64,000 nt of DNA from Candidatus Nomurabacteria bacterium (lineage in GTDB: Bacteria; Patescibacteriota; Minisyncoccia; Phycocordibacterales; UBA918). The stretch covers positions 25,448 to 89,447 of the forward strand of contig CP060228.1 in the NCBI GenBank assembly GCA_023898565.1, read 5' to 3'. The notes beneath the pieces were generated by a model. The model was not told where the DNA came from, searched no databases, and worked only from the letters and a program-made list of their open reading frames with translations. A program made the translations under genes and the position numbers. Shown in pieces: positions 25,634 to 47,145 of the stretch (its first letter is position 1; each line of letters starts with the position of its first letter).

Positions 25634-25634
25634 G

Positions 25635-27807: not shown

Positions 27808-27811
27808 ATCT

Positions 27812-28216: not shown

Positions 28217-28226
28217 ATCAAACCTC

Positions 28227-29583: not shown

Positions 29584-29689
29584 CTACTTTAAAACAGGGT
29601 CAAAACAGGGTCAGTCATCTTAAAAGAAGTGGAAAAGACTACAAAAAAGCCAGGTCATAACAGGACCAGGCTTTTGTTATTTTTGTGAC

Positions 29690-29857: not shown

Positions 29858-30115
29858 TGCACATTGACCAGAGGTGGTAAGTGGCTCCTCTCTAAAAAAG
29901 TAACTTGGAGGTGGTGTGCAGATGCCAATCCCCCGCTCTGACTTTAGGGTTGTCAACGGGGGACCTCATCTGCACGTCACTAATCTTCCTGCTTCTATCA
30001 AAGTTAGAGGGTAAATAGAAGATAAGGTTGGTCAATAGAACATAAACCTCCCCTTTTACATAGTATGAGGGGAACAAAACCCTAATTTAAAAATGTAACG
30101 TTTTATACAAAAACT

Positions 30116-30349
30116 ATGGTACGATCTCGATTAATAAGGGTTCACGAGGATATACACCAGAAACTAAAGGGCATGGCCATTGAAAAGAAGATAACCTGCG
30201 CTGCCCTCGTCGAACAAATGCTTTTATCATACTTCCGCTGGAACAATATTGACTTCAAGTTTAAACCTAAGAAAAAACTTAGTGCTCAACAGGAAATTAA
30301 TAAACAGACAAAGAAAGACCTAAAAATAATTGATAAACTAAATAAGTAA
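30116..30349 (+). CDS. Ribbon-helix-helix (CopG/Arc-like) DNA-binding protein, possible recombination directionality or regulatory factor
   Basis: SRLIRVHEDIHQKLKGMAIEKKITCAALVEQML beta-alpha-alpha pattern. Ends 2 nt before the recombinase start. Confidence 0.45.
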   Translation: MVRSRLIRVHEDIHQKLKGMAIEKKITCAALVEQMLLSYFRWNNIDFKFKPKKKLSAQQEINKQTKKDLKIIDKLNK

Positions 30350-30351
30350 CT

Positions 30352-31935
30352 ATGGAAAAAGCAGTAATCTACGCACGAGTATCATCAAAAGAACAAGAAG
30401 AAACTGGCTACTCCTTACCAGCCCAGCTGGACCTACTTCGTAAATACGCTGAGAAAAATGGTTTTAAGGTCTGCAAAGAGTTTTCTATTGCTGAGTCTGC
30501 GACGAGTCAAAGCGGTCGTAAGACCTTCCAAGCAATGCTTGCGTACACCAACCAGAAGAAAATACACACGATCATTTGTGAAAAGATCGACCGACTCACT
30601 AGGACCCCTAAAGATGCAGGTGTAATTGACGACTGGGTGCGCTCAACTGAAACCCGGACCGTCCACTTTGCCAAAGAAGGCTTCATTCTCAGTAAGCAAA
30701 CCAAAGCGCACGAGAACCTCGTTTGGAACATGAAAGTAGCTATCGCTAAGTTCTACACCGACAATCTATCTGAGGAGGTTCGTAAAGGTCAGGCTGCCAA
30801 GATTGCTGCCGGCCACCTCCCCACCAAACCACCGCTTGGATACCGAACCGTCGGGGAGCAAGGTAAGAAGGTGCACGTTATTGACGACAACACAGCCCCG
30901 CTGGTTAAGAAAATGTTTGAGATGTATGCCACCGGGAACTTCTCTGTCGTCGAACTAACAAAACGAATTAATCTGATAGGTCTCCGTAATCGAAACGGGA
31001 ACAAGCTGAGCAAGACACGAGTTCATGACTTTCTCTCAGACCCATTCTATTACGGAGACATGCGTTGGAACGACAAGATATTCAAAGGAGCTCATGAACC
31101 ACTGATCACTCTGGAGCTCTTCAACAAGGTTCAGGAGAAGCTAGGTCGAGGTACTGCTAGCCCATACTACCGAACTCATCCACTGCTATACAAAGCGAAG
31201 GTCACTTGTGCCACTTGCGGCTTCTTGGTGAGTTGGGAAAGACAGAAAGGACACGTCTATGGCTCTTGTAAGCATTGTAAGAGCCCTCTAGGAGCATCAT
31301 CCAAGTACTTACGAGAAGAAGAGTTAGACAAGAAGATCATCGAGAAAGTGCTAAAAGTAGCACCTAAGAACCAAAAGGTGCTCGACATCCTCAACCAAGC
31401 GTTAAAAGAGGACGCTGAGGAGGAAATACATGCTTACGAAACCAGTAAACGCCAGCTGGAAGAAAACCTACGCCGTGGCGACCTAAGAGTCGACACAGCT
31501 TACACGGACCGCTTAGATGGACGTATCGGCACAGAACGATATGACGGTATTAAAGCTGAATGGGATGCAGAAAGAAAAGCGATCTTGAACGAACTGACTC
31601 GTCTTAGCAACGATAAGTCAAAGTATTACGACGCTGGTTTCTCAATCCATGTCTTGGCTACAAAAACCCGAGAGATCTACGAGAGTCAACACGTTACAGA
31701 CGATGATCGTCGCCTGCTGTTAAGTTACGCCTTCAACAAAGTCACACTAGAAAGAGGCAACATCGAAGTTGAGTACACTCCAGCGTTCGAATATCTGCAA
31801 AAATGGGTACCTGCAGTAAACCAGAGTTTCGAACTTGCAAATAGTGGCTCTAATGAAAGACAAAAGGTGCCTTTCGGCACCTCTCATCCTACTTTGCTCC
31901 GCGGGCAGGATTCGAACCTGCGACCAATCGGTTAA
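30352..31935 (+). CDS. Large serine recombinase (resolvase/invertase N-terminal catalytic domain plus recombinase and zinc-ribbon domains). The 3' end overlaps tRNA-Asn.
   Basis: AVIYARVSSKEQ catalytic Ser motif. Central recombinase domain. CATCG...CKHC zinc ribbon. Coiled-coil tail. Confidence 0.85.
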   Translation: MEKAVIYARVSSKEQEETGYSLPAQLDLLRKYAEKNGFKVCKEFSIAESATSQSGRKTFQAMLAYTNQKKIHTIICEKIDRLTRTPKDAGVIDDWVRSTETRTVHFAKEGFILSKQTKAHENLVWNMKVAIAKFYTDNLSEEVRKGQAAKIAAGHLPTKPPLGYRTVGEQGKKVHVIDDNTAPLVKKMFEMYATGNFSVVELTKRINLIGLRNRNGNKLSKTRVHDFLSDPFYYGDMRWNDKIFKGAHEPLITLELFNKVQEKLGRGTASPYYRTHPLLYKAKVTCATCGFLVSWERQKGHVYGSCKHCKSPLGASSKYLREEELDKKIIEKVLKVAPKNQKVLDILNQALKEDAEEEIHAYETSKRQLEENLRRGDLRVDTAYTDRLDGRIGTERYDGIKAEWDAERKAILNELTRLSNDKSKYYDAGFSIHVLATKTREIYESQHVTDDDRRLLLSYAFNKVTLERGNIEVEYTPAFEYLQKWVPAVNQSFELANSGSNERQKVPFGTSHPTLLRGQDSNLRPIG

Positions 31936-31968
31936 CAGCCGACTGCTCTACCGCTGAGCTACCGCGGA
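31897..31968 (-). tRNA. tRNA-Asn (anticodon GTT)
   Basis: Minus-sense TCCGCGG TA GCTC AGCGGTA GAGC A GTCGG CTGTTAA CCGAT TGGTC GCAGG TTCGAAT CCTGC CCGCGGA G cloverleaf. CCA is not encoded. Confidence 0.85.
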
Positions 31969-32070
31969 ATATATGTGTAGCTCTACCTGAATCAATCAGG
32001 TATGGGTATTTTACAGATTTTTTAAGAAGATACAACCTCTTTATGAATACAGTGCTACACTATAGAACGT

Positions 32071-33864: not shown

Positions 33865-34224
33865 TCAGACATACCCGAGAAGCACATCGGCTGCGTCAAG
33901 CTGCTGGATGTCTTCATATTTCACTCGTCGGCCGTCGGCCAAGAGCCATTCTCCACCAGGCTCATCAGGAGCCGACTGCACAAGTATTGGCCACGACTCT
34001 TCGTCAAAGAGAATAACCATGGGTGCTCTCTTCGGGCCTTGTTCTTTCAGGTACTTGTAGTGCTCAATCCAGACTTGCTCGCCGCTTGACCAGCAACGAA
34101 ACCGAGCCCACCAAGACCTCCAACCAGTTTTTCTCTGTGCGCCTGACATAACTTCTCCTTGAAAGAACATTTCTGGCGCCAGTGTCTCATAAATTGAAAC
34201 GTTGTCAAAGTGGCACAGATTCAA
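33865..34224 (-). CDS. Hypothetical protein
   Basis: ORF only. Trp/Arg-rich N-terminus. Confidence 0.35.
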   Translation of the reverse strand: MNLCHFDNVSIYETLAPEMFFQGEVMSGAQRKTGWRSWWARFRCWSSGEQVWIEHYKYLKEQGPKRAPMVILFDEESWPILVQSAPDEPGGEWLLADGRRVKYEDIQQLDAADVLLGYV

Positions 34225-34274
34225 AGAAAAAAGCGATGTCCGAAGACATCGCTTTGTGTGTGAACCAGAGCTTA

Positions 34275-34559
34275 TTAGCCCTGGTAATATTCCTTGCTCG
34301 CGATCTCGACGATCTTCGAGCCGGGAACCCGACGTTCTTTGCCACTCGGCAGCATGACCACGAAGGTCGTACCGTCGATACGGACGCCGTGTGCCAGAGG
34401 CACACGCACACCTTTTTCGAGCACCAGCTCGAGACCTTCATCGTAACGCCGCTTGCGCAGCGCCACGAGCAGACCGATGTGATGTGCGAAAGCCTTGATA
34501 GCCTTCACCAGTCCAGCGCCGAACGTCGGAAGAACAAATTGCTTTGCAGTTGCTTGCAT
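34275..34559 (-). CDS. Hypothetical small protein
   Basis: ORF only. Confidence 0.35.
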   Translation of the reverse strand: MQATAKQFVLPTFGAGLVKAIKAFAHHIGLLVALRKRRYDEGLELVLEKGVRVPLAHGVRIDGTTFVVMLPSGKERRVPGSKIVEIASKEYYQG

Positions 34560-34617: not shown

Positions 34618-35985
34618 TCAAGTAGACTTGCGGAACTTTTCAAATGGACGGAACCAAACCTTGCCTTTTTCCAGATCAGCTCCTTTGCGCGAACCCCACA
34701 CGCTGATGCGCCCGGGCGTAAACAACGCTTGGAAACGAATGAATTGCCAGAAGGTCACCAAAACCACAAAGACCGGCAGTAGCAGCAGTCGCGATGGGTA
34801 TCGCAGTAAGTGCCACAACTGACGAACCGTGAACGTGAGCAACACTCCTGCCACCGAGTACGCTAGAAGCATCCACAGCGGCATTGCCAGACCCGCTTCT
34901 CCCCAGATAGCCAGATATCCCATCCTGACTACCAAAAATACCGAGATAAGGGTTAGCAATAGGTCTGTGTAGTACTGATACATCACAAACCCGAGCCGCC
35001 AAAACCAGCTTTTGCCGGTATACCTGAAGGTCAACCACTGACTGGAGGTTGCCCAGCGCCGGAATATGCGGTTTATCTGCCGGAGTTTTTTCGGAAGCGT
35101 TGTTTCCACGGTCGCCCGCGGATTCATCACTGTCCGATACCCCAACTCTTCCACTCGCAGGGTCATTCGCCGATCGTCACCCGCATGCGCTTGCACGCGA
35201 GCGATTGAAACAAATGGCCACTTGAATGAATATGTCGGCACCTTCCAGTACTCTTCGACCAGCTCGTCCATCCAGTCAGCGATGATACAGGAGCGGACCA
35301 TATACAGGCGCCCCGGCAAACACCCGACCTGACCAAACAGACTACCAGCCGCCATTGATCCACCGATGCGAGCATCCTCAAGCCAGTCAAGAATGCGCAG
35401 CAGCCAATGATTGGGGTTGCGAATACGTTGCGCAGTCGTCACCCCACCCACTCTTTCATCGACAAACGGCCGAAGCAGTTCGCCAATGATATTGTGGTCT
35501 GGCGTGGTCGGCACCGTATCAGAGTCATGGAAGGCAGAAAATTCATACAGCACTCCATGCTTCTTGGCCCACTCCACTGCATTGCGCAGATTTTTTCGCT
35601 TACTGCGCGCATTGGTCATGAAGACGTGTGCACCATATTGCTCGGCGATTTCAGCCAAGGCGCCTCCTTCTTTCGGATACACGTCGGCCGCGTCGACAAT
35701 ACATATGATGGCGTACTTGTCTGCCCATTTTTCAAGCGACGCCCGCAAGGCTGCGAGCGCCTCGTGTAAGACTTCAGGATCCTCCAGGTATATTGGTTCG
35801 AAGAGTGTCACGCCAGTAGCTCGAGTGAGCGGATGCTGCATGAACAGCTTTCCGCGTCGAATCTGGTGATGAAAGTACACACCAAGTAGCTGCCGCGGCA
35901 ACATAATCATCGTTGCAATGAAAAATAAGACTACGAACAGCGTTACTTCGTGACGAATATAGAGGTCGATGTATGTTTGACCCAC
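34618..35985 (-). CDS. Membrane-embedded family-2 glycosyltransferase of the processive synthase type (cellulose/chitin/PNAG-synthase-like)
   Basis: Ordered motifs IVDAAD, HDSDTV (DxD), LEDARIGG (TED-like), FRRW (QxxRW-like). N- and C-terminal TM helices. Confidence 0.6.
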   Translation of the reverse strand: MGQTYIDLYIRHEVTLFVVLFFIATMIMLPRQLLGVYFHHQIRRGKLFMQHPLTRATGVTLFEPIYLEDPEVLHEALAALRASLEKWADKYAIICIVDAADVYPKEGGALAEIAEQYGAHVFMTNARSKRKNLRNAVEWAKKHGVLYEFSAFHDSDTVPTTPDHNIIGELLRPFVDERVGGVTTAQRIRNPNHWLLRILDWLEDARIGGSMAAGSLFGQVGCLPGRLYMVRSCIIADWMDELVEEYWKVPTYSFKWPFVSIARVQAHAGDDRRMTLRVEELGYRTVMNPRATVETTLPKKLRQINRIFRRWATSSQWLTFRYTGKSWFWRLGFVMYQYYTDLLLTLISVFLVVRMGYLAIWGEAGLAMPLWMLLAYSVAGVLLTFTVRQLWHLLRYPSRLLLLPVFVVLVTFWQFIRFQALFTPGRISVWGSRKGADLEKGKVWFRPFEKFRKST

Positions 35986-35988
35986 CTT

Positions 35989-37452
35989 TCACCTCCTGTA
36001 GCCCTTGGTCCAGTCACCACCAAATGTGACGCCAACACGAATGCCGGCTCGCGTTTCACTGCGTCCGTCGAAGCGACTCGGCACCGGCACTGTATAGATT
36101 CGGTGCTCGAGATACACTTCAGCAAACTTTCTACCCCACTGCACTCCTGGTTGTAGCTCAGCATACAGACCGTAGCTCGCCGTGAGCGAAATTTGGTTAT
36201 TCCACCACTTTTCGTCATTTGGTGATTCCACGAAACCAATCTGTACACCTGGCCCATGCTTGAATGATCCAGCCGTCGGAAAAAGAATACGCTGGTTTAC
36301 GTACCCACGAAGCACAAAATCATCTTCGCCAAACGGCTGACCCGACACGGGGTTGATGGCTTGATTTGGCACCTCCCCCGCAAAGGACTTACTCAATGTC
36401 ACGAAGACACTCCACGGCGCGTCAAAACTTGTGAGAACGACACCTTCCTTGAGAATATTGTCGACACGATCACGTTGCGGCCAGTACAGCCTCATCGTGC
36501 CCGCGAACGACGCACGATCTTCTGGAGCAATATCCCAGTCAATCGCCACATCATTTGAAACAGTGCCTGGTTTCCGTTTTCCGAAGAAAAAGGTCACCGT
36601 GTCTACCTGGTCAAACTCTGGCGCCTCGAGATCGAGGAACATTTGTTCAAACCATGGCAACTTCGGCGCGCACAATCCTGAGGTGGATGTCTCAGCAACG
36701 TTGATAGGCCGTTTTGTAAATGCGGCCGCCCGATCGTATGCCGGAGCAAATCCTGCAATGAACGGCTGCTCGTACTCCGAGACAGAATCATTACTACCAG
36801 ATTCGGGACGATACTTTGGCGCCGTTCCACAGCGGTTGTAGCTGGAGATTGAGTACTGATCGACAAATTTATCGAGCGCCGACATGTAACGTCCTGCTTC
36901 TCCCAATACCTGCCCTTTACCATCAGCACGATTGAAGTTCACCTCAAAGAGCACACCGCTGTGAGCGTGATCAAAGAGACTGTGAATGTGACGCAATGCT
37001 GCAATTGCCTCTTCGGGCGTGTTGCCTTTTGCGTACATTCCCCACGGATGCCAAGAGGCATCTACCTCATGCAGTGGTCGAAGTACAATCTGCTTGTCCG
37101 CGCGACTGATAGCCGCCGCCAGATTGTTAAGATCAGGATCAAACCTCCCTTGCGCAATCCGACGAAGCAATCCCTCGCCCTGTTTATCGTCGATGATAAG
37201 CACCAAGATGAGATCATATCCTGCATCGAGATACTTTGCTTTTACCCACGACAGCGGTGCTCTCCGATTAACATCTGAGAGCAAGTTGTAGTAGACCGTG
37301 GCACACTTGATACCCAGTTCTTCCATGCGCTTGATATGCTCAGTGGAAGTCCATGCACTATCTTTTGCCAAACACGGCCGCGGCACACTCGCCTCCGCAA
37401 AAAGCGGAAACAAAAGCAGCGCAGCAAAGAGTGCTACCAGTAGCTTTTTCAT
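35989..37452 (-). CDS. Secreted protein with a signal peptide, an N-terminal glycoside-hydrolase-like domain and a C-terminal beta-rich (barrel-like) domain
   Basis: MKKLLVALFAALLLFPLFAEA signal peptide. HPWGMY...FEVNFN segment. Alternating hydrophobic beta pattern at the C-terminus. Confidence 0.45.
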   Translation of the reverse strand: MKKLLVALFAALLLFPLFAEASVPRPCLAKDSAWTSTEHIKRMEELGIKCATVYYNLLSDVNRRAPLSWVKAKYLDAGYDLILVLIIDDKQGEGLLRRIAQGRFDPDLNNLAAAISRADKQIVLRPLHEVDASWHPWGMYAKGNTPEEAIAALRHIHSLFDHAHSGVLFEVNFNRADGKGQVLGEAGRYMSALDKFVDQYSISSYNRCGTAPKYRPESGSNDSVSEYEQPFIAGFAPAYDRAAAFTKRPINVAETSTSGLCAPKLPWFEQMFLDLEAPEFDQVDTVTFFFGKRKPGTVSNDVAIDWDIAPEDRASFAGTMRLYWPQRDRVDNILKEGVVLTSFDAPWSVFVTLSKSFAGEVPNQAINPVSGQPFGEDDFVLRGYVNQRILFPTAGSFKHGPGVQIGFVESPNDEKWWNNQISLTASYGLYAELQPGVQWGRKFAEVYLEHRIYTVPVPSRFDGRSETRAGIRVGVTFGGDWTKGYRR

Positions 37453-37555
37453 GACATTCCTCCATGAAGACAGTCATATAAGTTGTAAAGAACAAACAAA
37501 CAGCTCATTACAAGCTATTTTTACTAGATTACAATACAACTAATTATCGACTTAG

Positions 37556-40500
37556 TCAATTATCTGCTGAAGCTTCGACTTCGGCGGTCTCTACTGGAGG
37601 TTCTGGCTCTACAGTGGCAGATGGGACCGTCTCTTCCATTTGTTCATACGTATCAGCCTTAGCATCAAAAGAATCTTCCTCCCCAAGCATTTCGACAGCA
37701 CCCGCGCCAACTTCTTGCGCCGTCTCCTCGGCTACCGATACCGAACTTGATGCTGATTCAAACACATCATCCAACACTCTTTCAACACTCGTAGTAGCAG
37801 TCACACTCTCTTCCTCAGCATGCTGAGTATCAGTATTAGAAGAAGCACCTATCGACGCTGAATCAGCTTCACTGTCTGAATCATTCGAAGCGTTAATTGC
37901 AGCTTCCAACGACGACACACGCACTTCAAGTTCAGCAATCTTCTGCTGATTGCCAGTCACGGTCTGCCATATTTCTTTCACTGCCTCCACCACAACGGCG
38001 AGTAAGTTGGCAGTATTGAGTGACCAATAGTCACCTCCTTTACGTACCACTTCAGGCACCACTTCATCTACCTCTTGTGCAATAAATCCGATTTCTTCTT
38101 GATCACCAAATCGTTCGTGATCTTTCCACTCATAGCGTACGCCACGAAGCTGAAGTAGTTTCTCTAAAGCTCCATCGAGGCTCTCAATATTTTGCTTTAA
38201 TCGACGATCAGACGGATTGCGAATAATATTACCGTTTGCATCAGTAGCCAGCGTAGTTGCACCACCGAGCAACACGGAAGATTGCACTGTGCCAATCACA
38301 TCGAGTGCCTGGTCAGGAGAAGTCGTTCCAATTCCCACATAACCATTGGTATCGATGGTGAGTCGCGAAGTGTTATTGGTCTGGAAACGAAGTTGATGAT
38401 TTGAAAAGGTACCAAAAAATCCTTGGTAGTCCTCTGCGCGCATATCGAAAATAACATTGTTGGTAGTATCACGGAACCGTGCACCAGCTCCTGACGGCGC
38501 CACAATGTTAAGCAGTCGGCTATCAGTGCTACTGCCGATACTGATCCGCCCATCGTAACGTAGGCCGCCAACCGTACTTGACGCAATCCACTTGTCATTA
38601 AAGAGAGGGGCGATACTTTCTGTAACACCGTCGTTGCCAACCTTGATAATGGAATCTTCTTCGATAATGAAGTGATCGTTACCACCATCATCGCGATACG
38701 CTTCATTTACTCCCCATAGTTGCCCATCTACTTTTACGTATGAAGCATTTGTCACGCGCACACCTGTCAGCGGTGCAAGCGGCGGGTTGCCACTATCATC
38801 CACACCAATAATCTGCGAGAGGCCATTAATAAAGACGGGCGCCACCTTCTCTGATGTCGTACCAATAATTGCCACACCAGCATATGGAGTCTCGGTGCCG
38901 CCACTGAGATTGGCGCCGTCACGACGGGTCAAAAGACCATTAAAGGTTACAGTAGTAGTACCAGTAAGCGAGATGCGTACTCCATGACGGTCGTTGCGGT
39001 CGGTTGAAAAGTCAGTAAACATGAGTCCCCCATTGGCAGATGAGCCATCAATGTACAAGCCAGTCAGACCATTAAACACTGCACGAGAGTTGTTGATCTT
39101 TGTTTCACCCATTGATGAAAGATAGATACCGCGTAGCGCATTACCGACAGAAAGCAAGTCTTCAATGTATGAGTCATTGAGTGCAGTAGCACGAAAACCA
39201 TGCCCATCAGCACTGTAGATAGAAAGTCCGCGAATCGTAAATCCGCGTGGATTACCGCTACCGGCACCCACCGCTGATTCAAAACCATTACCGGTCACTT
39301 GAGAAATATCGACATCAGTCAGTTTCCAATCACGCACCAAGCCTTCAAAGTAAACACCATCCACGTCCGTACTGGCCGACCCACCATCGAGACTCAGATA
39401 CTCTAAGCGCCCACCGTTGTTATTGTTGACTTCGCCGGAAATTGCTTTATCGCGCACATGAATCATGGCCACTCCTGAGAAGCTGCCGAAATCTGCACGA
39501 ATTGAGCTGCGCGGGGTACTTGAGTATGACCAACGCGGCGAATATGCACCGCGGAGCGTCACTGGCCGATCAAGTATGATTGGACTTGAAATACGATATT
39601 GCCCCATCGGAAAAAACACGGTGCCACCGTCGCCACAGGCGGCGATTGCGGCAGCAATCGCCGCGTCATTGATAGTGGAATTATCTCCGACAGCGCCATA
39701 TGCCTCCACGTTACACACCTCACCACCAAGATCAACAATGCGTGCAGTCGTGGTACCTGCCAAAATAGTACCAGCTACGGTCAAAGTAGCTGACGGAGTG
39801 GTTGTGCCAATCCCAACGCTACCAGTTGACCGAAATACATCAGTGCCATTGCCTTGCCAAGTGCTTGCAGTAGAGCTAGAGAGGGCTTGCCCATTCCAAT
39901 ATAAATCGCCGTTTACGTTGTACAATCGATTAGCCACGCTTGTTGGTGCAGTCGCTCCTAAATAAAGCGCACCTGCCACAGCCAGTACGTCAGACGGGCT
40001 AGAGGTGCCAACTCCGAGCCAGCCAGTTGTATACGTTGTTCCCCCTAAAATTGCATCAGTGAGCTGTGGACTTGAAAAATCTCCGTCAGACAAAACCGAA
40101 TCAAATCGATTACCAACAGTATCGTAGATTTTATCTACTGATTTAATAACATAATCTCGATCAGCACCTCCGGCAGAGCCTTTCACAGATAACGGAACAG
40201 CTGCTTGGTGCGGCAAAGAGTTAATATACATCAACACCTGTGTGATTCTCTCATTGAGACGCGCTTCTGTAACACCAGCGTACGACACTACCAGCTGCTG
40301 GCTCTCGAGAGTTTCATTCACCACGGGATACGACGATGTTGCTGCGGGTAATTCATCTGAAACTGGGCTAGTGACTACCGGCGGACGCACTACTACATCA
40401 AGCACTTCTGCATCACTAGTTACCACCTCAACTCGAACAGTAGTCTGGCAAAAACCAAGTGGACGCACTACCCACCCGAAAGCCGTACAAAAAAGACTGT

Positions 40501-40588
40501 CAGTTGATTCATCAGCATCAGCAAAAACTGGCGACACCAGTCCCACAAACACAACAACCAACGCAAGAAGCGAGTTAACAACCTTCAT
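37556..40588 (-). CDS. Large secreted right-handed beta-helix (pectate-lyase/tailspike-like) protein with a C-terminal intramolecular chaperone (peptidase S74 / endosialidase-chaperone) domain and an acidic tail
   Basis: Signal peptide. GDGGTVFFPMGQYRISSPIIL pectate_lyase_3-like. SDRRLKQNIESLDGALEKLLQLRGVRYEWKD...IGFIAQEVDEVVPEVV chaperone-of-endosialidase signature. Confidence 0.7.
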   Translation of the reverse strand: MKVVNSLLALVVVFVGLVSPVFADADESTDSLFCTAFGWVVRPLGFCQTTVRVEVVTSDAEVLDVVVRPPVVTSPVSDELPAATSSYPVVNETLESQQLVVSYAGVTEARLNERITQVLMYINSLPHQAAVPLSVKGSAGGADRDYVIKSVDKIYDTVGNRFDSVLSDGDFSSPQLTDAILGGTTYTTGWLGVGTSSPSDVLAVAGALYLGATAPTSVANRLYNVNGDLYWNGQALSSSTASTWQGNGTDVFRSTGSVGIGTTTPSATLTVAGTILAGTTTARIVDLGGEVCNVEAYGAVGDNSTINDAAIAAAIAACGDGGTVFFPMGQYRISSPIILDRPVTLRGAYSPRWSYSSTPRSSIRADFGSFSGVAMIHVRDKAISGEVNNNNGGRLEYLSLDGGSASTDVDGVYFEGLVRDWKLTDVDISQVTGNGFESAVGAGSGNPRGFTIRGLSIYSADGHGFRATALNDSYIEDLLSVGNALRGIYLSSMGETKINNSRAVFNGLTGLYIDGSSANGGLMFTDFSTDRNDRHGVRISLTGTTTVTFNGLLTRRDGANLSGGTETPYAGVAIIGTTSEKVAPVFINGLSQIIGVDDSGNPPLAPLTGVRVTNASYVKVDGQLWGVNEAYRDDGGNDHFIIEEDSIIKVGNDGVTESIAPLFNDKWIASSTVGGLRYDGRISIGSSTDSRLLNIVAPSGAGARFRDTTNNVIFDMRAEDYQGFFGTFSNHQLRFQTNNTSRLTIDTNGYVGIGTTSPDQALDVIGTVQSSVLLGGATTLATDANGNIIRNPSDRRLKQNIESLDGALEKLLQLRGVRYEWKDHERFGDQEEIGFIAQEVDEVVPEVVRKGGDYWSLNTANLLAVVVEAVKEIWQTVTGNQQKIAELEVRVSSLEAAINASNDSDSEADSASIGASSNTDTQHAEEESVTATTSVERVLDDVFESASSSVSVAEETAQEVGAGAVEMLGEEDSFDAKADTYEQMEETVPSATVEPEPPVETAEVEASADN

Positions 40589-40641
40589 CTCTCCTATTGT
40601 ACCAAGTACAGTAAATCGTGCCGAAGAAAGTGGGTACAGCG

Positions 40642-42162
40642 CTAGGCCACACCAGGGAAAAAATCACGAACAATTCGGCTTTTTGCCACACCCATACCAC
40701 GCAAAAGCTTTGTGTAAGCATCTACCATACCTGGAGGACCAGAGAGATACCACGTGCGTTCAAGATAATCAGGCGTACGACGCTTTACCATTTCCTCCGT
40801 TAGATACCCAGATTCGTATGGCTGAGAGACCTCTTCTTTCGCCACCACAGGGATAAGCTCGAGCTGTACCGTACGCATCACACGTCCAAACACCTGTGAA
40901 TACGCCAGTTCATTCATCATATTTACGCAATAGTACAGCGCCACATCACGGGGTTGATCAGCGTCTGCCAAGTATTGTAAATGACTACGAAATGGGGTCA
41001 CGCCAATACCACCAGCGACAAACGCTAATTTTTCCGTTGAATCTTTCGGTAATAAAAAATCTCCTGCTAATTGACTGGCAATGATTTTTTCACCAACGTC
41101 CAGCTTGAGCAGCTCACGTTTATACGAACTGCCGTTTTCCGTTATTTTGAAAGCCATGCGCACTTTGCTTTCTGTCGGAGCAGCTGCAATTGTAAAGTAA
41201 CGGCGAATACCCTTACTGTCTGATTTTTCATGGGGAAACATCCACTCTAGATACTGACCGGCTTTAAACGTAAAACCAGCTGGTTTCTTGAATACAAATT
41301 CATATGTGTTGGCGGCGATACGTTCTTTTGATTCAAACTCAAGATAGAGCTTACGACGCAACCTGGCTGGCAGCATAAAAATGTTGCCGATAATGAGCGC
41401 CAACTCTGGCGAAAAACTAACCAATGAGCTGTTTGAAAGAAAACCAACAAGACCTCCGTAGAGCGTCTGTGGCCCCTTTGTCGCCGGCATCGTAAACGGC
41501 TCAGTAAGCATGTAAAAGGCCAGGAAAAGCGTCGGCCATGACAAGAAAAAAGTACGTAGTGCATCTGGAATCAGCAAACCATAGCTGTACCCCTCAGCCA
41601 CATAAATGACTACACTCACTAACACAAACGCTATTACCGGCACCCACTTACGCACCTTCATCACCACCAAAACACCAGTAATTATGAGCGGAACAAACAG
41701 CGCCGGATTAGCTACCCACCAACTAAACGTGTACACGCCTGTCACACTAAGTGCTGCAGCGCCAACGGCCGCTGGATTCATAAAGTGTTGCCGCCGGTAT
41801 ACAAAAATGAACTTTGACAGAATCGCAATCGTCACTGCTGCCACCAGCGGCCAATTTGAAAGAACATCTTCCTCAGGGATGGTAAGGAAGAAAAGTATAA
41901 AGGCTGTAATCACCGCAGATTCATGATTGACGGGAATGTTGGTGACAAGAGCAATAATCCAGTTAAGTGACAGTGCCACCAGCAATGCCAGCAATAATGC
42001 AAACAGTTGACCGAGTCCACTGTACGCTAAAAAGCCACTGAACCCAGCTACAATGGAACAAAACGCCAACGCAACCAATGAACCGAGCACCAAGCGGTAC
42101 ATACCAATTCCATCAACGAAGTGCTGTAGTGAGCGATATGGCTTTGTAATAATGTGCATCAT
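40642..42162 (-). CDS. Polytopic membrane domain fused to a ferredoxin-NADP-reductase-like FAD/NAD(P)-binding oxidoreductase domain
   Basis: About 270 aa of TM helices, then FTFKAGQYLEW...RRYFTIAAAP (FAD binding), GGIGVTPFRS, YLSGPPGMVDA (NAD binding). Confidence 0.6.
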   Translation of the reverse strand: MMHIITKPYRSLQHFVDGIGMYRLVLGSLVALAFCSIVAGFSGFLAYSGLGQLFALLLALLVALSLNWIIALVTNIPVNHESAVITAFILFFLTIPEEDVLSNWPLVAAVTIAILSKFIFVYRRQHFMNPAAVGAAALSVTGVYTFSWWVANPALFVPLIITGVLVVMKVRKWVPVIAFVLVSVVIYVAEGYSYGLLIPDALRTFFLSWPTLFLAFYMLTEPFTMPATKGPQTLYGGLVGFLSNSSLVSFSPELALIIGNIFMLPARLRRKLYLEFESKERIAANTYEFVFKKPAGFTFKAGQYLEWMFPHEKSDSKGIRRYFTIAAAPTESKVRMAFKITENGSSYKRELLKLDVGEKIIASQLAGDFLLPKDSTEKLAFVAGGIGVTPFRSHLQYLADADQPRDVALYYCVNMMNELAYSQVFGRVMRTVQLELIPVVAKEEVSQPYESGYLTEEMVKRRTPDYLERTWYLSGPPGMVDAYTKLLRGMGVAKSRIVRDFFPGVA

Positions 42163-42236
42163 GCAGTGTAGTACTTAACGGTGATAATAGTTTCAGTATA
42201 CTACTACACCGTTTTACTGATTTAATTTCATTTACA

Positions 42237-42884
42237 ATGCCGTACATAATTGCCGTATTAGCCCTAGCAGTTGTTGGTGTAGGTTTTGCTCTTTCACACA
42301 ATCAGACTGACATAGCTGTCACTCAAAACACGGAAGCGACGGTAGCTGCTACCGAAGAAACTATTCCAAACCTCGTCTCAATTGATGATGAGTTAACTGA
42401 AGCACCAGAAACACCGATTGAAACCGAGGTTGTTATCGAAACAGAAAATACTGCCACCGTAGTAGCCAAGACTGAAATAACTTCTACACAAACGACACCC
42501 CAAACCAACACCATAGAACCAAACACTGCGACCACACCGAGTACGCCGGCCCCTGCAGCACCCACCCCAAGTACACCAGCTATTACGTATACATATGCAA
42601 ACGGTACCTACAATGCTACCCGCAGTTATCGCACACCAGATGGAAACTACAGCATGGATGTGAGCCTGACAGTCAGCAACGATACAGTTACCGCTGTAGA
42701 CATTTCCTTTAGTGGCAAAGCAGCTCGCGATAGCTACACCAAGCGCTTTTTAAAGAGTTATGAAGGTGGCGTTGTTGGGAAAGACCTTGAAAACGTTGAC
42801 CTCGCTCGAGTTGGTGGCGCTTCACTAACAACAAACGCCTTTAACGTAGCAATCGACAGTATCAGGGCACAAGCTATCCTCTAG
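42237..42884 (+). CDS. Extracytoplasmic FMN-binding-domain protein (N-terminal anchor/signal, Thr/Pro-rich linker)
   Basis: C-terminal VDLARVGGASLTTNAFNVAI resembles the FMN_bind D..SGAT(I/L)(S/T) flavinylation motif. Confidence 0.5.
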   Translation: MPYIIAVLALAVVGVGFALSHNQTDIAVTQNTEATVAATEETIPNLVSIDDELTEAPETPIETEVVIETENTATVVAKTEITSTQTTPQTNTIEPNTATTPSTPAPAAPTPSTPAITYTYANGTYNATRSYRTPDGNYSMDVSLTVSNDTVTAVDISFSGKAARDSYTKRFLKSYEGGVVGKDLENVDLARVGGASLTTNAFNVAIDSIRAQAIL

Positions 42885-42959
42885 GTACAGATTTGGTTTT
42901 TCTTACGAATGTATTACTATACTAGTGTTGTTAGTTTAATTTTTAAACCATTACCACGT

Positions 42960-43394
42960 ATGTCGTACATTATTGGTATTATCGTCATAGCTGTTGTCGC
43001 GATTGGATTCACCCTTACGAGGAACGGTGATATACCACCGAGTCAAACAGAGGTTGCTACCTCCGAAACGGTCACCAGAGAAACGTCTGGCGATGCTGTT
43101 GCCACGATTACAGACGGCACACACAGCACATCAGTTACCTATTTCACACCAGCACGCAACGAGTATTTGCTGGACGTAACACTCATCACCGAAAACGGGA
43201 TAATCACTGACGCGAACGTGGCATATAGCCAAGGAGCAGAAAAGGACCCGAATGCACAACGCTTTGAAGCGGCATACAAAGAGGTTGTTATTGGCCAATC
43301 AATTTCTGACCTTGAAGTATCACGCGTTGGCGGAGCCTCACTCACTAGCGCAGCCTTCAACGAAGCGCTTGCCAAGATTCGATCTGAAGCATAA
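42960..43394 (+). CDS. Extracytoplasmic FMN-binding-domain protein (paralogue)
   Basis: LEVSRVGGASLTSAAFNEAL. N-terminal MSYIIGIIVIAVVAIGF anchor parallels the upstream gene. Confidence 0.5.
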   Translation: MSYIIGIIVIAVVAIGFTLTRNGDIPPSQTEVATSETVTRETSGDAVATITDGTHSTSVTYFTPARNEYLLDVTLITENGIITDANVAYSQGAEKDPNAQRFEAAYKEVVIGQSISDLEVSRVGGASLTSAAFNEALAKIRSEA

Positions 43395-43403
43395 AGTTAG
43401 CAC

Positions 43404-44273
43404 ATGACTCATGAATTCGAGGCGCTCGGCACCAAGTGGTGGATTACCATCTTTGGCGACGCTTCGAAGGAAACGCTCGAGGCGGCCTTTGGCCGCCTCG
43501 AGCGTTTTACACGTGAATACGAAATGCGCTACTCACGATTTCGTACTGACTCACTCATCAGCAAACTTAATACCCAACGGAAATTTGAAGCGCCAGATGA
43601 GGCATTCCGCACCCTTCTTGAGTTCGGCAAAGGCCTTTACCTACGCACAAACACCAACTTCAATCTTTTGACCGGAAACATTCTTGAAGCCCGCGGCTAT
43701 AACGCTGACTACACATTCACACCATCCAACCCTGAACGAGAAACAGCCGGAAACCCTATAACCGACTTACAAATTACATTAGAAAAAATCACTCTCGCTC
43801 ATGGGAAGGTTGACATTGGCGGATACGGCAAAGGATACTTGATTGATGAACTGGCAAGAATTCTTCAAGAAGAATTCTTGCTGCCCTACTTTTTAATCAA
43901 TGGCGGCGGTGACATGTTCGTGAGTAGTAACTGTAATAAGCCAGTTGAAATCTATCTCGAACACCCGACTGCTCCAAAAAAGTATATCCACACCACCCTA
44001 CTACACAACCAAGGCTTCGCAGCATCTAGTCCCTTTAAACGTATCTGGAAATCAGCCGACCAAACCTTCACACACATCATCACCAATCACACCGCACCAA
44101 AAGTTGCCTCGTTTGTGAAAGCTTCTTCAGCACGAGATGCCGACGCCTTTGCCACCACAGCTCTTCTCTTGCATGAAACTGAATTAGTAAAGCTTGCCCA
44201 CGAGGAACACTTCAGTATTGCACGCTTCAATCCAGAAACAAGTCAGCTCTGGCAAACAACAAACTTTACGTAA
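43404..44273 (+). CDS. apbE: ApbE-family FAD:protein FMN transferase
   Basis: DIGGYGKGYLIDE ApbE signature. Size 289 aa. Confidence 0.7.
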   Translation: MTHEFEALGTKWWITIFGDASKETLEAAFGRLERFTREYEMRYSRFRTDSLISKLNTQRKFEAPDEAFRTLLEFGKGLYLRTNTNFNLLTGNILEARGYNADYTFTPSNPERETAGNPITDLQITLEKITLAHGKVDIGGYGKGYLIDELARILQEEFLLPYFLINGGGDMFVSSNCNKPVEIYLEHPTAPKKYIHTTLLHNQGFAASSPFKRIWKSADQTFTHIITNHTAPKVASFVKASSARDADAFATTALLLHETELVKLAHEEHFSIARFNPETSQLWQTTNFT

Positions 44274-45100: not shown

Positions 45101-45739
45101 CTATTCACCACTTTCCTCTTTCGCCATAATCATCGCTTTTACGCGCATGGTTGATACCACCGCGTCGCGATTGCGTTCATCGAGCTGCATCGTGATGAAC
45201 TTAATCGTGTCATTGAGATTTGGAATACGCACGTTCTCGAGCGCTGACACGCGACGGCGCGTCTTTTCGATTTCCTGCGCTAGGTTTTCCGCTGTCTTCT
45301 CAAGCTCAGCGAGCTTCAGGATATCGACAATCACCGCATCAAATTTCACCATGGCATTGTCGAGATCACCAGTGGTTTCGAGCATGCCGTAGGCAAATGC
45401 AGAGCCGTGCTTCTCGATGGTAAACTCAGGAATCTTCACTGACATCACGCTGTTTACCCTCACGCCAAGATCAATCTTGGCGTTTGGCACCATGAAGGCA
45501 GTGTTGAGCGCAGCTGCAGAAGTCATACCACTCGCCCGAGCGTATGAATCAAACGCTGAGCCAAGACGCGCCTCAACCGACTCACGCTTCGCCTTTGCCT
45601 CATAGATAATCGCCATGAATTTCTTCACGAGACCATCGCGCTTATCTTTGAGTAGCTTATGTCCCTTCTTCGCAGTCTTGAGTTCCTTCTTGAGTGAAAG
45701 GAGCGCAATGCGAGTGGGGTTAACTTTTAATATAGCCAT
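45101..45739 (-). CDS. atpD: V/A-type ATPase subunit D
   Basis: Coiled-coil 212 aa at the last position of the operon. Confidence 0.8.
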   Translation of the reverse strand: MAILKVNPTRIALLSLKKELKTAKKGHKLLKDKRDGLVKKFMAIIYEAKAKRESVEARLGSAFDSYARASGMTSAAALNTAFMVPNAKIDLGVRVNSVMSVKIPEFTIEKHGSAFAYGMLETTGDLDNAMVKFDAVIVDILKLAELEKTAENLAQEIEKTRRRVSALENVRIPNLNDTIKFITMQLDERNRDAVVSTMRVKAMIMAKEESGE

Positions 45740-45752
45740 AATTCAGAAGAAA

Positions 45753-47135: not shown

Positions 47136-47145
47136 GATACGAAAC

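What the first reader, a model, noticed from the sequence alone, without database searches (positions are those of the whole stretch)
34618..40588. Surface-polysaccharide cluster with a tailspike-like beta-helix protein carrying an endosialidase-type auto-cleaving chaperone domain
Three co-directional genes: a processive-type membrane GT2 synthase (D, DxD, TED-like, RRW motifs), a signal-peptide protein with a glycoside-hydrolase-like N-domain and a beta-rich C-domain, and a 1010-aa secreted protein. The last contains a pectate-lyase-3 / right-handed beta-helix segment and, near its C-terminus, a clear peptidase-S74 intramolecular-chaperone signature (SDRRLKQNIESL...YEWKD...IGFIAQEVDEVVPEVV). 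This is followed by a coiled coil and a poly-acidic tail.

This chaperone domain is best known from phage tailspikes/endosialidases and is auto-cleaved after folding. Here the gene is chromosomal and sits beside EPS synthesis genes. That suggests a cell-borne polysaccharide depolymerase or adhesin, possibly of prophage ancestry.
Basis: partly seen in the sequence, partly recalled or inferred. Interest (0 to 1): 0.55.

Follow-up and report, generated by a model that had tools for sequence, protein, structure and literature searches.

The report
Domesticated tailspike in CPR polysaccharide operon
An ultra-small (CPR/Patescibacteria) bacterium carries, as a fixed chromosomal operon, a phage-type self-cleaving tailspike enzyme followed by a lichenase-like glycosidase and a hyaluronan-synthase-like polysaccharide synthase, so a viral spike seems to have been recruited into the cell's own surface-sugar machinery.

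Summary
Three co-directional minus-strand genes are present.

- **A (40588..37556, 1010 aa):** signal peptide, PF12708 right-handed beta-helix (E 4.7e-13) and Peptidase_S74 chaperone (E 1.7e-19, S793/K798 dyad).
- **C (35985..34618):** a membrane GT2 whose best solved relative is Chlorella-virus hyaluronan synthase (E 2e-21).

This is not a prophage remnant. The A-B-C order recurs in every sufficiently long related locus from Paceibacteria/Nomurabacteria-type genomes. It sits in at least four different housekeeping contexts, and none has phage genes. Close relatives are absent from viral contigs.

The beta-helix is homologous to actinophage tailspikes (36% identity). Within CPR it is conserved like V-ATPase subunits (81-89%), whereas B and C diverge to 31-53%. 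A homologous GT2+GH26 pair, next to a UDP-sugar dehydrogenase, exists in Streptomyces.

The best reading is a wall-anchored, S74-matured trimeric spike enzyme working with a synthase-dependent beta-glycan system. Its chemistry and substrate are unproven. I classify it as a new variant of known kinds, of moderate interest.

The parts
40596..40624 (-). Promoter-like site (TCGGCA-17-TACAAT with TG-extended -10), 8 nt upstream of the ATG of gene A
   Evidence: Consensus scan; sequence. This is weak evidence, because the number of promoter-like sites in the region is no higher than in shuffled sequence.
37556..40588 (-). Gene A: a 1010-aa secreted tailspike-like protein (the coordinates include the stop codon)
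   Evidence: ORF. Pfam PF12708 and PF13884. About 50 full-length CPR homologues with the same architecture.
40520..40588 (-). A aa 1-23: Sec signal peptide (…SPVFA|DADES)
   Evidence: Single N-terminal hydrophobic segment; read from the sequence. There is no lipobox and no LPXTG.
40079..40519 (-). A aa 24-170: variable N-terminal region (Cys-x12-Cys loop, Val-rich, helical neck). It is the presumed envelope-attachment end.
   Evidence: Only 29-48% identical among relatives. Orthologues P0033 and P0032 carry PG_binding_1 here (31 and 30 bits against a cut-off of 23).
39734..40078 (-). A aa 171-285: fibre segment with two 'capping-loop' motifs (GWLGVGTSSPSDVL, GSVGIGTTTPSATL)
   Evidence: Motif search. 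The consensus V-G-G/N-x-x-x-P-x-x-x-L was described for Bdellovibrio MAT fibres and MyRF (PMC10769870).
38639..39733 (-). A aa 286-650: right-handed parallel beta-helix, the presumed enzymatic domain
   Evidence: - PF12708 match.
- AlphaFold model with pLDDT 81.
- Foldseek hits to AlgE4, RbmB, phi29 gp12 and CBA120 TSP2.
- 36.5% identity to phage Eevee gp10.
- 59-89% identity among CPR relatives.
38213..38638 (-). A aa 651-792: C-terminal stalk or tip of triple-beta-helix type, with a third capping loop (GYVGIGTTSPDQAL)
   Evidence: phmmer against PDB hits Bd3182 fibre tip 8ojn (E 1.1e-7, aa 726-800) and the MyRF stalk plus ICA domain 7dc3 (1.4e-5).
37949..38212 (-). A aa 793-880: Peptidase_S74 intramolecular chaperone. 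The predicted autocleavage site is at S793, with K798 as the general base.
   Evidence: Pfam E 1.7e-19. SDRRLK motif. The dyad is kept in 36/36 homologues: 30 SDxxLK and 6 SSxRFK.
37559..37948 (-). A aa 881-1010: short heptad-like helix followed by an acidic low-complexity tail, predicted to leave with the chaperone
   Evidence: Composition. Tails of 55-180 aa with 9-39% D+E occur in homologues.
35989..37452 (-). Gene B: a 487-aa secreted two-domain protein. The start codon lies 103 nt after the stop of A.
   Evidence: ORF. A family of about 35 proteins, all from CPR.
36484..37380 (-). B aa 25-323: GH26 (beta/alpha)8 barrel of the Lic26A-like subgroup. Catalytic E129 (acid/base) and E254 (nucleophile) are present.
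   Evidence: - phmmer to 2v3g gives 2e-16, and E129/E254 align with E109/E222 of CtLic26A.
- Both Glu are invariant in 34 sequences.
- Foldseek gives 6e-19 with TM 0.84.
35992..36441 (-). B aa 338-487: orphan beta-rich C-terminal domain (about eight long antiparallel strands, ending in …FGGDW)
   Evidence: Block pLDDT is mostly 84-97 across this part of the model. No Pfam or PDB sequence match. Only 30 representatives among 1.84 billion proteins carry it, all at the C-terminus of B-like proteins.
34618..35985 (-). Gene C: a 455-aa membrane GT2 synthase of the hyaluronan/chitin-synthase type. The start codon lies 3 nt after the stop of B.
   Evidence: - Pfam GT2 families.
- NCBIfam best hits are NodC and PgaC, both below cut-off.
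- One N-terminal and about three C-terminal TM segments.
- A profile matches Cv-HAS 7sp6/8snc at E 2e-21 over catalytic and TM parts, and Xenopus HAS1 at 2.4e-15.
- Motifs DSD, CLPGR, GDDR, xxRW and WG(S/T)R.
34275..34559 (-). Small ORF D (94 aa), a possible fourth gene of the unit
   Evidence: An ORF of 82-110 aa follows the GT2 in most relatives. An HMM built from six of them finds this ORF at E 0.008 among 4449 ORFs. The evidence is weak but consistent with its position.
34230..34255 (-). Intrinsic-terminator-like hairpin (11 bp stem plus a T-run), the probable end of the transcription unit
   Evidence: No comparable terminator lies between A, B and C.

Best explanation
A-B-C, probably with small ORF D, is a chromosomal operon of a Paceibacteria/Nomurabacteria-type CPR bacterium. 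It builds and processes a cell-surface beta-linked polysaccharide.

**Gene C.** C is a one-protein synthase-translocase of the hyaluronan/chitin-synthase class. It polymerises nucleotide sugars at the membrane and extrudes the chain through its own transmembrane channel.

**Gene B.** B is Sec-secreted. It is a retaining GH26 endo-glycanase of the lichenase/beta-1,3-xylanase-like subgroup that trims or releases the chain. Its orphan C-domain probably holds it at the envelope or on the polymer.

**Gene A.** A is a domesticated phage tailspike.
- After Sec export, three chains are brought into register by the C-terminal S74 chaperone.
- The chaperone then cuts itself off at S793 (Ser793/Lys798 dyad) and leaves together with the acidic tail.
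- The mature trimer of about 770 residues is held at the wall by its variable N-terminus, which is a PG_binding_1 domain in some orthologues.
- It presents a right-handed beta-helix enzyme domain and a triple-beta-helix tip outward.
- There it binds and cleaves or modifies an invariant glycan, most simply the backbone made by C.

**Shown:** domain identities, the catalytic motifs of S74 and GH26, host rather than prophage location, strict A-B-C linkage, and kinship to actinophage tailspikes.

**Inferred:** trimerisation and autocleavage, wall anchoring, the substrate, and the chemistry of A (hydrolase, lyase or other).
For: **Identity of the parts**
- A.
- B.
- C.

**Host module**
- Five distinct loci were found from A homologues, 13 loci came from species-representative genomes, some of them the same contigs as the first set, and two were found starting from B. 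All that extend far enough show A then B then C on one strand.
- Flanks differ between loci: V-ATPase/ApbE…Ung/Fpg, GH130/PMM, RecG/type IV pilus genes, and sigma factor/antiporter. No phage genes are present.
- GC of A, B and C (0.49-0.53) matches the flanks, unlike the 0.43 island nearby.
- IMG/VR holds nothing closer than 33% identity.

**Operon signals**
- The B-C gap is 3 nt.
- No terminator appears until 34255-34230.

**S74 competence**
- The Ser and the Lys five residues downstream are kept in 36/36 homologues.
- The same motif was shown experimentally to self-cleave in the cell-encoded fibre Bd3182 (PMC10769870).

**Wall anchoring**
- PG_binding_1 sits directly after the signal peptide in P0032 and P0033.

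**Enzymatic rather than merely adhesive helix**
- It is 81-89% identical between genomes whose V-ATPase subunits are 78-93% identical.
- Charged residues are invariant on successive rungs. The core motifs RAVFN, (S/T)TDRN and RRDG are shared with actinophage tailspikes.

**An older partnership**
- Streptomyces has a homologous GT2 (32% identity) flanked by three GH26 genes homologous to B (E 5e-15 to 5e-11) and by a UDP-glucose/GDP-mannose dehydrogenase.
Against: - No biochemical data exist for any member.
- B and C evolve much faster than the helix. C is 31% identical in the close relative L001, while the helix is 89% identical. If A's specificity followed C's product, the two should co-vary. 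This holds only if the polymer backbone stays constant.
- A lacks the diagnostic motifs of GH28 and of AlgE/AlgG epimerases. Its structural neighbours span hydrolases, lyases, epimerases and adhesins, so its catalysis is not established.
- The window protein itself has no recognisable wall-binding domain, LPXTG or lipobox.
- CPR bacteria are mostly epibionts, and cell-encoded S74 fibres in Bdellovibrio are aimed at other cells.
Confidence: 0.5

Rival explanations
1. A is an attachment or penetration device directed at the host cell on which the epibiotic CPR bacterium lives. It would be a cell-borne 'tailspike' that recognises and perhaps digests a host surface glycan, as phage spikes and Bdellovibrio MAT fibres do. 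B and C would then serve a linked but different task, for example making a matching or protective polymer, or remodelling the contact zone.
For: - The closest cell-encoded precedent, Bdellovibrio S74 MAT fibres, acts on prey.
- The helix's nearest relatives outside CPR are tailspikes of phages that infect Actinobacteria.
- Actinobacteria (Streptomyces) carry the homologous GT2+GH26 cluster, so an actinobacterial polymer is a plausible target.
- The helix is invariant while the CPR's own synthase diverges.
Against: - The strict co-orientation of A, its fixed position directly upstream of B and C in every locus, and the absence of a terminator between them argue for one pathway.
- Host-range adhesins are usually hypervariable at the distal end. 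Here the distal enzyme domain is the most conserved part.
- The hosts of these Paceibacteria are unknown.
Confidence: 0.25
2. A is a non-catalytic structural fibre, for example a surface-layer or capsule-anchoring spike. It would use the beta-helix only as a lectin that tethers the polysaccharide made by C to the wall.
For: - No known catalytic motif set was found.
- Beta-helix adhesins such as PfbA are among the structural neighbours.
- N-terminal PG_binding_1 in orthologues gives a wall-to-polymer bridge geometry.
Against: - Charged residues (D, E, R, H, K) are invariant along successive rungs. The motif core is shared with phage tailspikes, which are typically enzymes.
- Conservation at 81-89% is higher than expected for a simple lectin.
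Confidence: 0.15
3. The gene is a leftover of a prophage, that is, a decaying tail-fibre gene next to unrelated host genes.
For: - The domains are typical of phage receptor-binding proteins. PHROG tail families match A, best hit phrog_11699 at 2.9e-31.
- An integrative island with a serine recombinase lies 2.7 kb away.
Against: - The reading frame is intact and the S74 dyad is conserved in 36/36 homologues.
- The same three-gene order recurs in at least four host contexts with no phage neighbours.
- Fpg and Ung separate A-B-C from the island, and the island carries defence and FtsK cargo but no virion genes.
- GC matches the host.
- There are no close viral relatives.
Confidence: 0.03

Closest known systems
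Bdellovibrio bacteriovorus MAT ('mosaic adhesive trimer') fibres of the S74 subgroup, e.g. Bd3182 (PDB 8OJN; PMC10769870)
   Same: - Chromosomally encoded, signal-peptide-bearing proteins of about 1000 aa.
- Trimeric beta-helical stalk with V-G-x-G-T-x-x-P-x-x-x-L capping loops.
- C-terminal S74 domain with the SDxxxK motif, shown there to self-cleave.
- Direct sequence hit of A aa 726-800 at E 1e-7.
   Different: - MAT fibres are long adhesins without an enzymatic right-handed beta-helix.
- They form multi-copy, diverse families (21 per genome) rather than a conserved gene.
- I know of no report that they sit in an operon with a polysaccharide synthase.
- They serve predation. Here the spike is the first gene of a GT2+GH26 operon.
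Phage tailspikes and endosialidases with a C-terminal intramolecular chaperone (K1F endoNF, T5 pb1, K5 lyase-type spikes). K5 lyase is cited from my own knowledge; endoNF and T5 via PMC10769870.
   Same: The order is attachment end, then enzymatic domain, then triple-beta-helix stalk, then S74 chaperone. The Ser/Lys autocleavage motif is shared. PHROG tail-fibre families match aa 720-900.
   Different: The gene is not in a virus. The N-terminus carries a Sec signal peptide and, in orthologues, a peptidoglycan-binding domain instead of a virion adaptor. An acidic tail follows the chaperone.
Actinophage tailspikes / 'minor tail proteins' (Curtobacterium phage Eevee gp10; Streptomyces phages GiJojo gp76, Ibantik, Satis and others)
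   Same: The beta-helix domain is homologous: 28-36.5% identity over about 350 aa, E down to 2e-45. The motifs RAVFN, (S/T)TDRN, RRDG and YAG are shared.
   Different: - The phage proteins lack the aligned S74 and stalk part of A in these matches.
- CPR-invariant residues (E415, D427, H463, R466, R486, K497, D514, R534) are not shared.
- The biochemical activity of the phage proteins is not annotated in the records I saw.
Synthase-dependent exopolysaccharide systems with dedicated glycanases or beta-helix enzymes. These include alginate (Alg8 + AlgL + beta-helix epimerases AlgG/AlgE4), cellulose (BcsA + BcsZ), Psl (PslG), Vibrio VPS lyase RbmB and the Vi-antigen depolymerase VexL (PMC6003464). 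System knowledge is partly my own.
   Same: A membrane GT2 synthase is encoded together with secreted enzymes that act on the nascent polymer. The top structural neighbours of A's helix are AlgE4 and RbmB, and PslG is among the neighbours of B.
   Different: - To my knowledge, none of these systems uses an S74-matured, tailspike-type trimer.
- A lacks the AlgE/AlgG DPH(D/E) motif.
- The glycanase here is GH26, not GH8, GH39 or a PL family.
- The organism is a monoderm-like CPR bacterium, and no outer-membrane export parts were seen.
Class I hyaluronan synthases (Chlorella virus Cv-HAS, PDB 7SP6/8SNC; Xenopus HAS1 8SMM) and chitin synthase/NodC relatives
   Same: A profile of C and its orthologues aligns over the catalytic and transmembrane parts at E 2e-21, including the DxD, GDDR(x)LT, xxRW and C-terminal WGTR motifs. 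It is a single-polypeptide synthase-translocase.
   Different: - The Q of Q(Q/R)xRW is not conserved.
- C falls below the NCBIfam NodC/PgaC cut-offs.
- The product is unknown.
- No UDP-glucose dehydrogenase lies in the window.
Clostridium thermocellum Lic26A (GH26 beta-1,3-1,4-glucanase, PDB 2BV9/2CIP)
   Different: Identity is only 22-24%. B has an extra orphan C-domain and a signal peptide. Pfam GH26 does not reach threshold on the window protein. Specificity is untested.

Membership tests
Peptidase S74 / C-terminal intramolecular chaperone domain (Pfam PF13884) | Match to the family profile above the curated threshold | tested here: met
   70.3 bits against a cut-off of 22, E 1.7e-19, covering profile positions 1-58 of 58 at aa 793-849.
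Peptidase S74 / C-terminal intramolecular chaperone domain (Pfam PF13884) | Catalytic Ser with a Lys five residues downstream (SDxxxK) | tested here: met
   S793-DRRL-K798. The motif is kept in 36/36 homologues, 30 as SDxxLK and 6 as SSxRFK. The motif definition is from PMC10769870.
Peptidase S74 / C-terminal intramolecular chaperone domain (Pfam PF13884) | Sits directly after a trimeric beta-helical stalk | tested here: met
   aa 726-800 align with the Bd3182 trimeric tip (E 1e-7), and aa 745-886 align with the MyRF stalk plus ICA domain (E 1.4e-5). The capping-loop motif lies at aa 751-762. This rests on sequence only; no trimer model was made.
Peptidase S74 / C-terminal intramolecular chaperone domain (Pfam PF13884) | Autoproteolytic release of the chaperone after trimer folding | not testable with these tools
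   This needs protein expression with an S793A control.
Right-handed parallel beta-helix carbohydrate-active proteins (Pfam PF12708 Pect-lyase_RHGA_epim) | Profile match above threshold and a beta-helix fold | tested here: met
   49.9 bits against a cut-off of 27. The AlphaFold model has pLDDT 81 with stacked short strands. Foldseek gives probability 1.0 to AlgE4, RbmB, tailspikes, GH28 and GH55.
Mannuronan C5-epimerases (AlgE/AlgG) | Active-site motif DPH(D/E) | tested here: not met
   There is no DPH[DE] anywhere in A. The resemblance is in fold only.
GH28 polygalacturonase/rhamnogalacturonase | Conserved NTD, G/QDD, G-x-HG and RIK motif set | tested here: not met
   Only a chance G.DD at aa 595 and an NTD in the acidic tail were found. 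G.HG and R[IV]K are absent. The 1rmg and NCBIfam hits cover only the N-terminal cap, aa 288-340.
Glycoside hydrolase family 26 | (beta/alpha)8 fold most similar to GH26 members | tested here: met
Glycoside hydrolase family 26 | Two catalytic glutamates (acid/base on strand 4, nucleophile on strand 7) | tested here: met
   E129 and E254 align with E109 and E222 of CtLic26A. Both are invariant in 34 family members. The roles of E109 and E222 come from my own knowledge of the Lic26A literature.
Hyaluronan/chitin-synthase-type membrane GT2 (processive synthase-translocase) | GT-A catalytic motifs DxD, G(D/E)DR and (Q)xxRW | tested here: met
   D154-S-D156, G269DDR272 and R310W311 are invariant in six orthologues. 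The Q position varies (F, V or W), which is a departure from the consensus.
Hyaluronan/chitin-synthase-type membrane GT2 (processive synthase-translocase) | C-terminal transmembrane channel region homologous to HAS, with the WGTR motif | tested here: met
   The profile aligns to Cv-HAS residues 20-465, including TM helices and WG(S/T)R, at E 2e-21. The hydropathy scan shows about three hydrophobic C-terminal stretches.
Hyaluronan/chitin-synthase-type membrane GT2 (processive synthase-translocase) | Product identity (hyaluronan, chitin or other) | not testable with these tools
   C falls below the equivalog cut-offs for NodC and PgaC. This needs heterologous expression and polymer analysis.
Prophage / phage tail module | Neighbouring virion, baseplate or lysis genes, or presence on viral contigs | tested here: not met
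   Flanks are housekeeping genes in all loci. The best IMG/VR relative is 33% identical. B and C have no PHROG match.
Bdellovibrio MAT fibre family | Conserved beta-rich domain of about 130 aa directly after the signal peptide | not tested
   No MAT N-terminal sequence was available for comparison. Only the stalk and S74 part matched.

The most novel reading that the evidence does not exclude
A phage tailspike has been permanently domesticated by a lineage of ultra-small CPR bacteria. It serves as an essential-like, wall-anchored extracellular enzyme and is conserved as strongly as ATPase subunits. It is hard-wired to a hyaluronan-synthase-like polysaccharide machine.

The spike, the synthase and the GH26 glycanase would form a previously undescribed kind of surface-glycan system. 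Its counterpart (GT2 + GH26 + uronic-acid supply) exists in Actinobacteria and is attacked there by homologous phage spikes. In the boldest version, the CPR spike recognises that actinobacterial polymer and mediates epibiont-host attachment.
Probability: 0.3. Interest if true: 0.75.

Novelty: new variant of a known kind. Interest (0 to 1): 0.55.

Why it matters
CPR/Patescibacteria have tiny genomes and depend on other cells, and almost nothing is known about their envelopes. A conserved operon that couples a self-cleaving phage-type spike to a single-protein polysaccharide synthase and a glycanase offers several concrete leads.

- It gives a cloneable handle on what coats these cells, or on how they grip their hosts.
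- It is an example of virus-to-cell recruitment of a receptor-binding enzyme outside predatory bacteria.
- It links to an uncharacterised GT2+GH26 cluster in Streptomyces and to actinophage tailspikes of unknown substrate. One biochemical experiment could therefore annotate three protein families.

Tried and rejected
- **Prophage remnant:** rejected on synteny, composition and the absence of viral relatives.
- **AlgE-type epimerase or GH28 assignment for the helix:** rejected because the motifs are absent, despite the top fold hits.
- **phmmer of C against PDB:** found nothing. Only a six-sequence profile reached HAS.
- **B's C-domain:**
  - A Pfam scan of 18 members and a profile search of PDB gave nothing.
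  - An exhaustive phmmer search showed that it exists only in this family.
- **Riboswitch or other RNA upstream of the operon:** none. Rfam finds only tRNA-Asn and a LOOT RNA, both elsewhere.
- **Literature searches** for S74 or tail-fibre proteins in CPR/Patescibacteria returned no relevant paper in the held library.
- **UDP-glucose dehydrogenase near the operon:** none in the window.
- **Small ORF D as a clear family member:** only borderline (E 0.008).

Full report
**1. What is there.** Three ORFs on the minus strand coincide exactly with the finding's limits. They are A 40588..37556 (1010 aa), B 37452..35989 (487 aa) and C 35985..34618 (455 aa).
- The gaps are 103 nt between A and B and 3 nt between B and C.
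- A promoter-like site with an extended -10 lies just upstream of A.
- The first strong terminator hairpin on that strand is at 34255-34230, after a further small ORF D (34559..34275, 94 aa).
- GC of A, B and C (0.49, 0.52, 0.53) is like that of the neighbouring housekeeping genes (0.46-0.51). It differs from a 0.43 island further left.

**2. Protein A.**
- Pfam gives Peptidase_S74 at aa 793-849 (E 1.7e-19) and PF12708 at aa 292-491 (E 4.7e-13).
- The N-terminus is a Sec signal peptide (…SPVFA|DADES), and no other hydrophobic segment exists.
- S793-D-R-R-L-K798 is the SDxxxK dyad. That motif was shown to self-cleave in the cell-encoded fibre Bd3182 (PMC10769870).
- All 36 aligned homologues keep the Ser and the Lys five residues downstream.
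- aa 726-800 match the crystallised Bd3182 tip (E 1e-7), and aa 745-886 match the MyRF stalk/ICA domain.
- Three copies of the 'capping loop' motif lie at aa 192, 259 and 752.
- An AlphaFold model of aa 270-720 (pLDDT 81) is a right-handed beta-helix.
- Its Foldseek neighbours are AlgE4 epimerase, the Vibrio VPS lyase RbmB, an alginate epimerase/lyase, phi29 gp12, CBA120 and Sf6 tailspikes, DFA-IIIase, GH28 and GH55. The fold is therefore carbohydrate-active, but the chemistry is open.
- The AlgE DPH(D/E) motif and the GH28 motif set are absent.
- After the S74 domain come a short heptad-like helix and a 130-aa acidic tail.

**3. Kinship with phages.**
- tblastn against 50,697 phage genomes finds the helix (aa 289-653) in Curtobacterium phage Eevee gp10 (36.5% identity, E 2e-45). 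It also finds it in many Streptomyces phage tailspikes or minor tail proteins at 28-32% identity.
- PHROG tail families match both the helix and the S74 part.
- An alignment shows a shared core (D472, D477, RAVFN, (S/T)TDRN, RRDG, YAG). It also shows a set of charged residues that are invariant only in the CPR family.

**4. Protein B.**
- The window protein has no Pfam hit.
- phmmer against PDB gives the GH26 lichenase CtLic26A at 2e-16. B's E129 and E254 align with E109 and E222 of that enzyme.
- Both Glu are invariant in 34 family members.
- The model (pLDDT 90) is a TIM barrel (aa 25-323), a linker, and about eight long antiparallel strands (aa 346-477).
- The C-domain has no Pfam or PDB sequence relative.
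- Among 1.84 billion representative proteins it occurs only 30 times, always at the C-terminus of B-like proteins.

**5. Protein C.**
- Pfam GT2 families match. NodC and PgaC are the best NCBIfam models, both far below cut-off.
- There are one N-terminal and about three C-terminal hydrophobic segments.
- A profile of six orthologues matches Chlorella-virus hyaluronan synthase over catalytic and membrane parts (E 2e-21) and Xenopus HAS1 (2.4e-15).
- Invariant motifs are DSD, CLPGR, GDDR, RW and the C-terminal WG(S/T)R. The Q of QxxRW is not kept.

**6. Host gene or prophage?**
- Homologues of A with the same architecture come from Nomurabacteria, Paceibacteria and Parcubacteria MAGs.
- Contexts of five A homologues, 13 loci from species-representative genomes, all Patescibacteria and some on the same contigs as those, and two loci reached from B instead of A were compared by tblastn.
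- Every locus that extends far enough has A, then B, then C on one strand.
- The flanks differ:
  - V/A-ATPase, ApbE and an RnfD-like reductase on one side, with Ung and Fpg on the other. This is the arrangement in the window and in L001, L003, L033 and L034.
  - Two GH130 genes, PMM and mannose-6-phosphate isomerase (L004).
  - RecG and type IV pilus genes (L005).
  - A sigma factor and a Na/H antiporter (L006).
- No phage gene is present anywhere.
- IMG/VR contains nothing closer than 33% identity.

**7. Unequal conservation.**
- L001 is a close relative: V-ATPase A/B/D are 85-93% identical, and Fpg and Ung are 76-77%.
- Against L001, the helix is 88.7% identical, the stalk 78% and S74 77%. 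A's N-terminal region is only 48%, B 47-48% and C 31%.
- Against the more distant L003, the helix is 81%, S74 36%, B 37% and C 53%.
- Across all loci the helix (59-85%) is the best-conserved element of the module.
- This is the reverse of what phage or adhesin receptor-binding domains usually show, and it implies an invariant substrate. It is also the main point against a simple 'depolymerase that tracks its own variable EPS'.

**8. Anchoring.** The window protein has no LPXTG, lipobox or known wall-binding domain. Orthologues P0033 and P0032 do have PG_binding_1 immediately after the signal peptide, above the Pfam threshold. The N-terminus is therefore the cell-proximal end in at least part of the family.

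**9. An older GT2+GH26 partnership.**
- Outside CPR the nearest relative of C is a Streptomyces GT2 (32% identity).
- In Streptomyces that gene is flanked by three GH26 genes, a divergently transcribed UDP-glucose/GDP-mannose dehydrogenase and a PMT_2 protein.
- Those GH26 proteins are homologous to B (E 5e-15 to 5e-11).
- The synthase-glycanase pair is thus a module shared with Actinobacteria, where a uronic-acid-containing polymer is plausible.
- The tailspike is the CPR-specific addition, and its closest outside relatives are spikes of phages that infect Actinobacteria. This coincidence is suggestive but untested.

**10. Mechanism proposed.**
- C polymerises and extrudes a beta-glycan. By analogy with HAS and with the lichenase/beta-1,3-xylanase-like B, the polymer may contain mixed beta-1,3 and beta-1,4 linkages, and it may be acidic. 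This is inference.
- B trims or releases the polymer.
- A is exported, trimerised by its S74 chaperone and cut at S793. It is held at the wall by its N-terminus and acts on an invariant glycan with its helix domain.
- Confidence is about 0.5.
- The main rival (0.25) is that A is aimed at the epibiont's host cell, by analogy with the Bdellovibrio fibres.
- A non-catalytic tether (0.15) and a prophage relic (0.03) follow.

**11. Comparison and novelty.**
- Each part belongs to a known family: S74, PF12708 beta-helix, GH26 and HAS-type GT2.
- Cell-encoded S74 fibres are known (Bdellovibrio, MyRF).
- Beta-helix enzymes inside polysaccharide loci are known (AlgG/AlgE, RbmB, VexL).
- The new element is their fixed combination in a CPR lineage. 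An enzymatic, S74-matured tailspike is the first gene of a synthase+GH26 operon, and it is conserved at housekeeping level.
- I found no paper describing this in the held library.
- I rate it a new variant of known kinds, with interest 0.55.

Noticed in passing
window 16000-31970: A low-GC (0.39-0.46) integrative island ends at tRNA-Asn(GTT) 31896-31968 (-). The 3' end of a large serine recombinase ORF (30352-31935 +) overlaps that tRNA. Its cargo is:
- zeta toxin (17944-18648);
- a 1034-aa Eco57I/MmeI-type methyltransferase (18645-21749);
- a 1149-aa PLD-nuclease + SNF2 helicase (21739-25188);
- FtsK/SpoIIIE (25635-27068).
No virion genes were seen. It looks like a mobile defence island. Relative L001 has a recombinase fragment at the same spot.
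   Followed up: partly
window 28676-28800 (-): A full-length match to Rfam LOOT RNA (RF03000, 69.9 bits against a gathering score of 46.4) lies inside the island.
   Followed up: no
window 34275-34559 (-) and 33865-34224 (-): Two small ORFs lie downstream of the GT2.
- D (94 aa) weakly matches a family of 82-110-aa ORFs that follow the GT2 in L005, L006, L009, L010, L012 and L018 (HMM E 0.008).
- E (119 aa) matches the ORF that follows the GT2 in L001 and L008 (blastp 2.8e-11).
Neither has a Pfam hit, and each is followed by a terminator-like hairpin.
   Followed up: partly
L028 1-17320 (Streptomyces sp. NBC_01262, CP108462.1): An apparently uncharacterised actinobacterial cluster holds a HAS-like GT2, three GH26 genes, UDP-glucose/GDP-mannose dehydrogenase and a PMT_2 protein. 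It is homologous to C and B of the window and is seen on at least 24 contigs.
   Followed up: partly
window 35992-36441 (-): The C-terminal 150 aa of B form a confidently modelled domain of about eight long strands. It has no known relatives and occurs only in this GH26 family: 30 representatives in 1.84 billion proteins. Its fold class and role (anchor or carbohydrate-binding) are unresolved.
   Followed up: partly
L011 8049-14816; proteins P0009, P0019, P0028: Some orthologues of A are 1300-1500 aa or longer. They carry up to about 5 kb inserted between the beta-helix and the S74 domain, or an extended N-terminus. Fibre length is therefore variable while the helix stays constant.
   Followed up: no
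window 40642-44273: Directly upstream of A lies a 506-aa fusion of an RnfD/NqrB-like membrane domain with an FAD/NAD-binding reductase. Next to it lie two small secreted proteins of unknown family (42237-42884 and 42909-43394; the first has only a sub-threshold YidC_periplas match) and the flavin transferase ApbE. A complete V/A-type ATPase operon (45101-53402) lies beyond. The arrangement is syntenic in L001, L003, L033 and L034.
   Followed up: no
L001 14556-16115 versus window 34618-35985: The GT2 of the closest relative is only 31% identical. It carries an N-terminal insert of about 60 aa with extra hydrophobic segments, although housekeeping genes are 76-93% identical. This suggests replacement or accelerated divergence of the synthase within a fixed operon frame.
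   Followed up: partly
window 5098-6597 (+): A MurA/EPSP-synthase-family enzyme is fused to an N-terminal HTH_3 DNA-binding domain.
   Followed up: no
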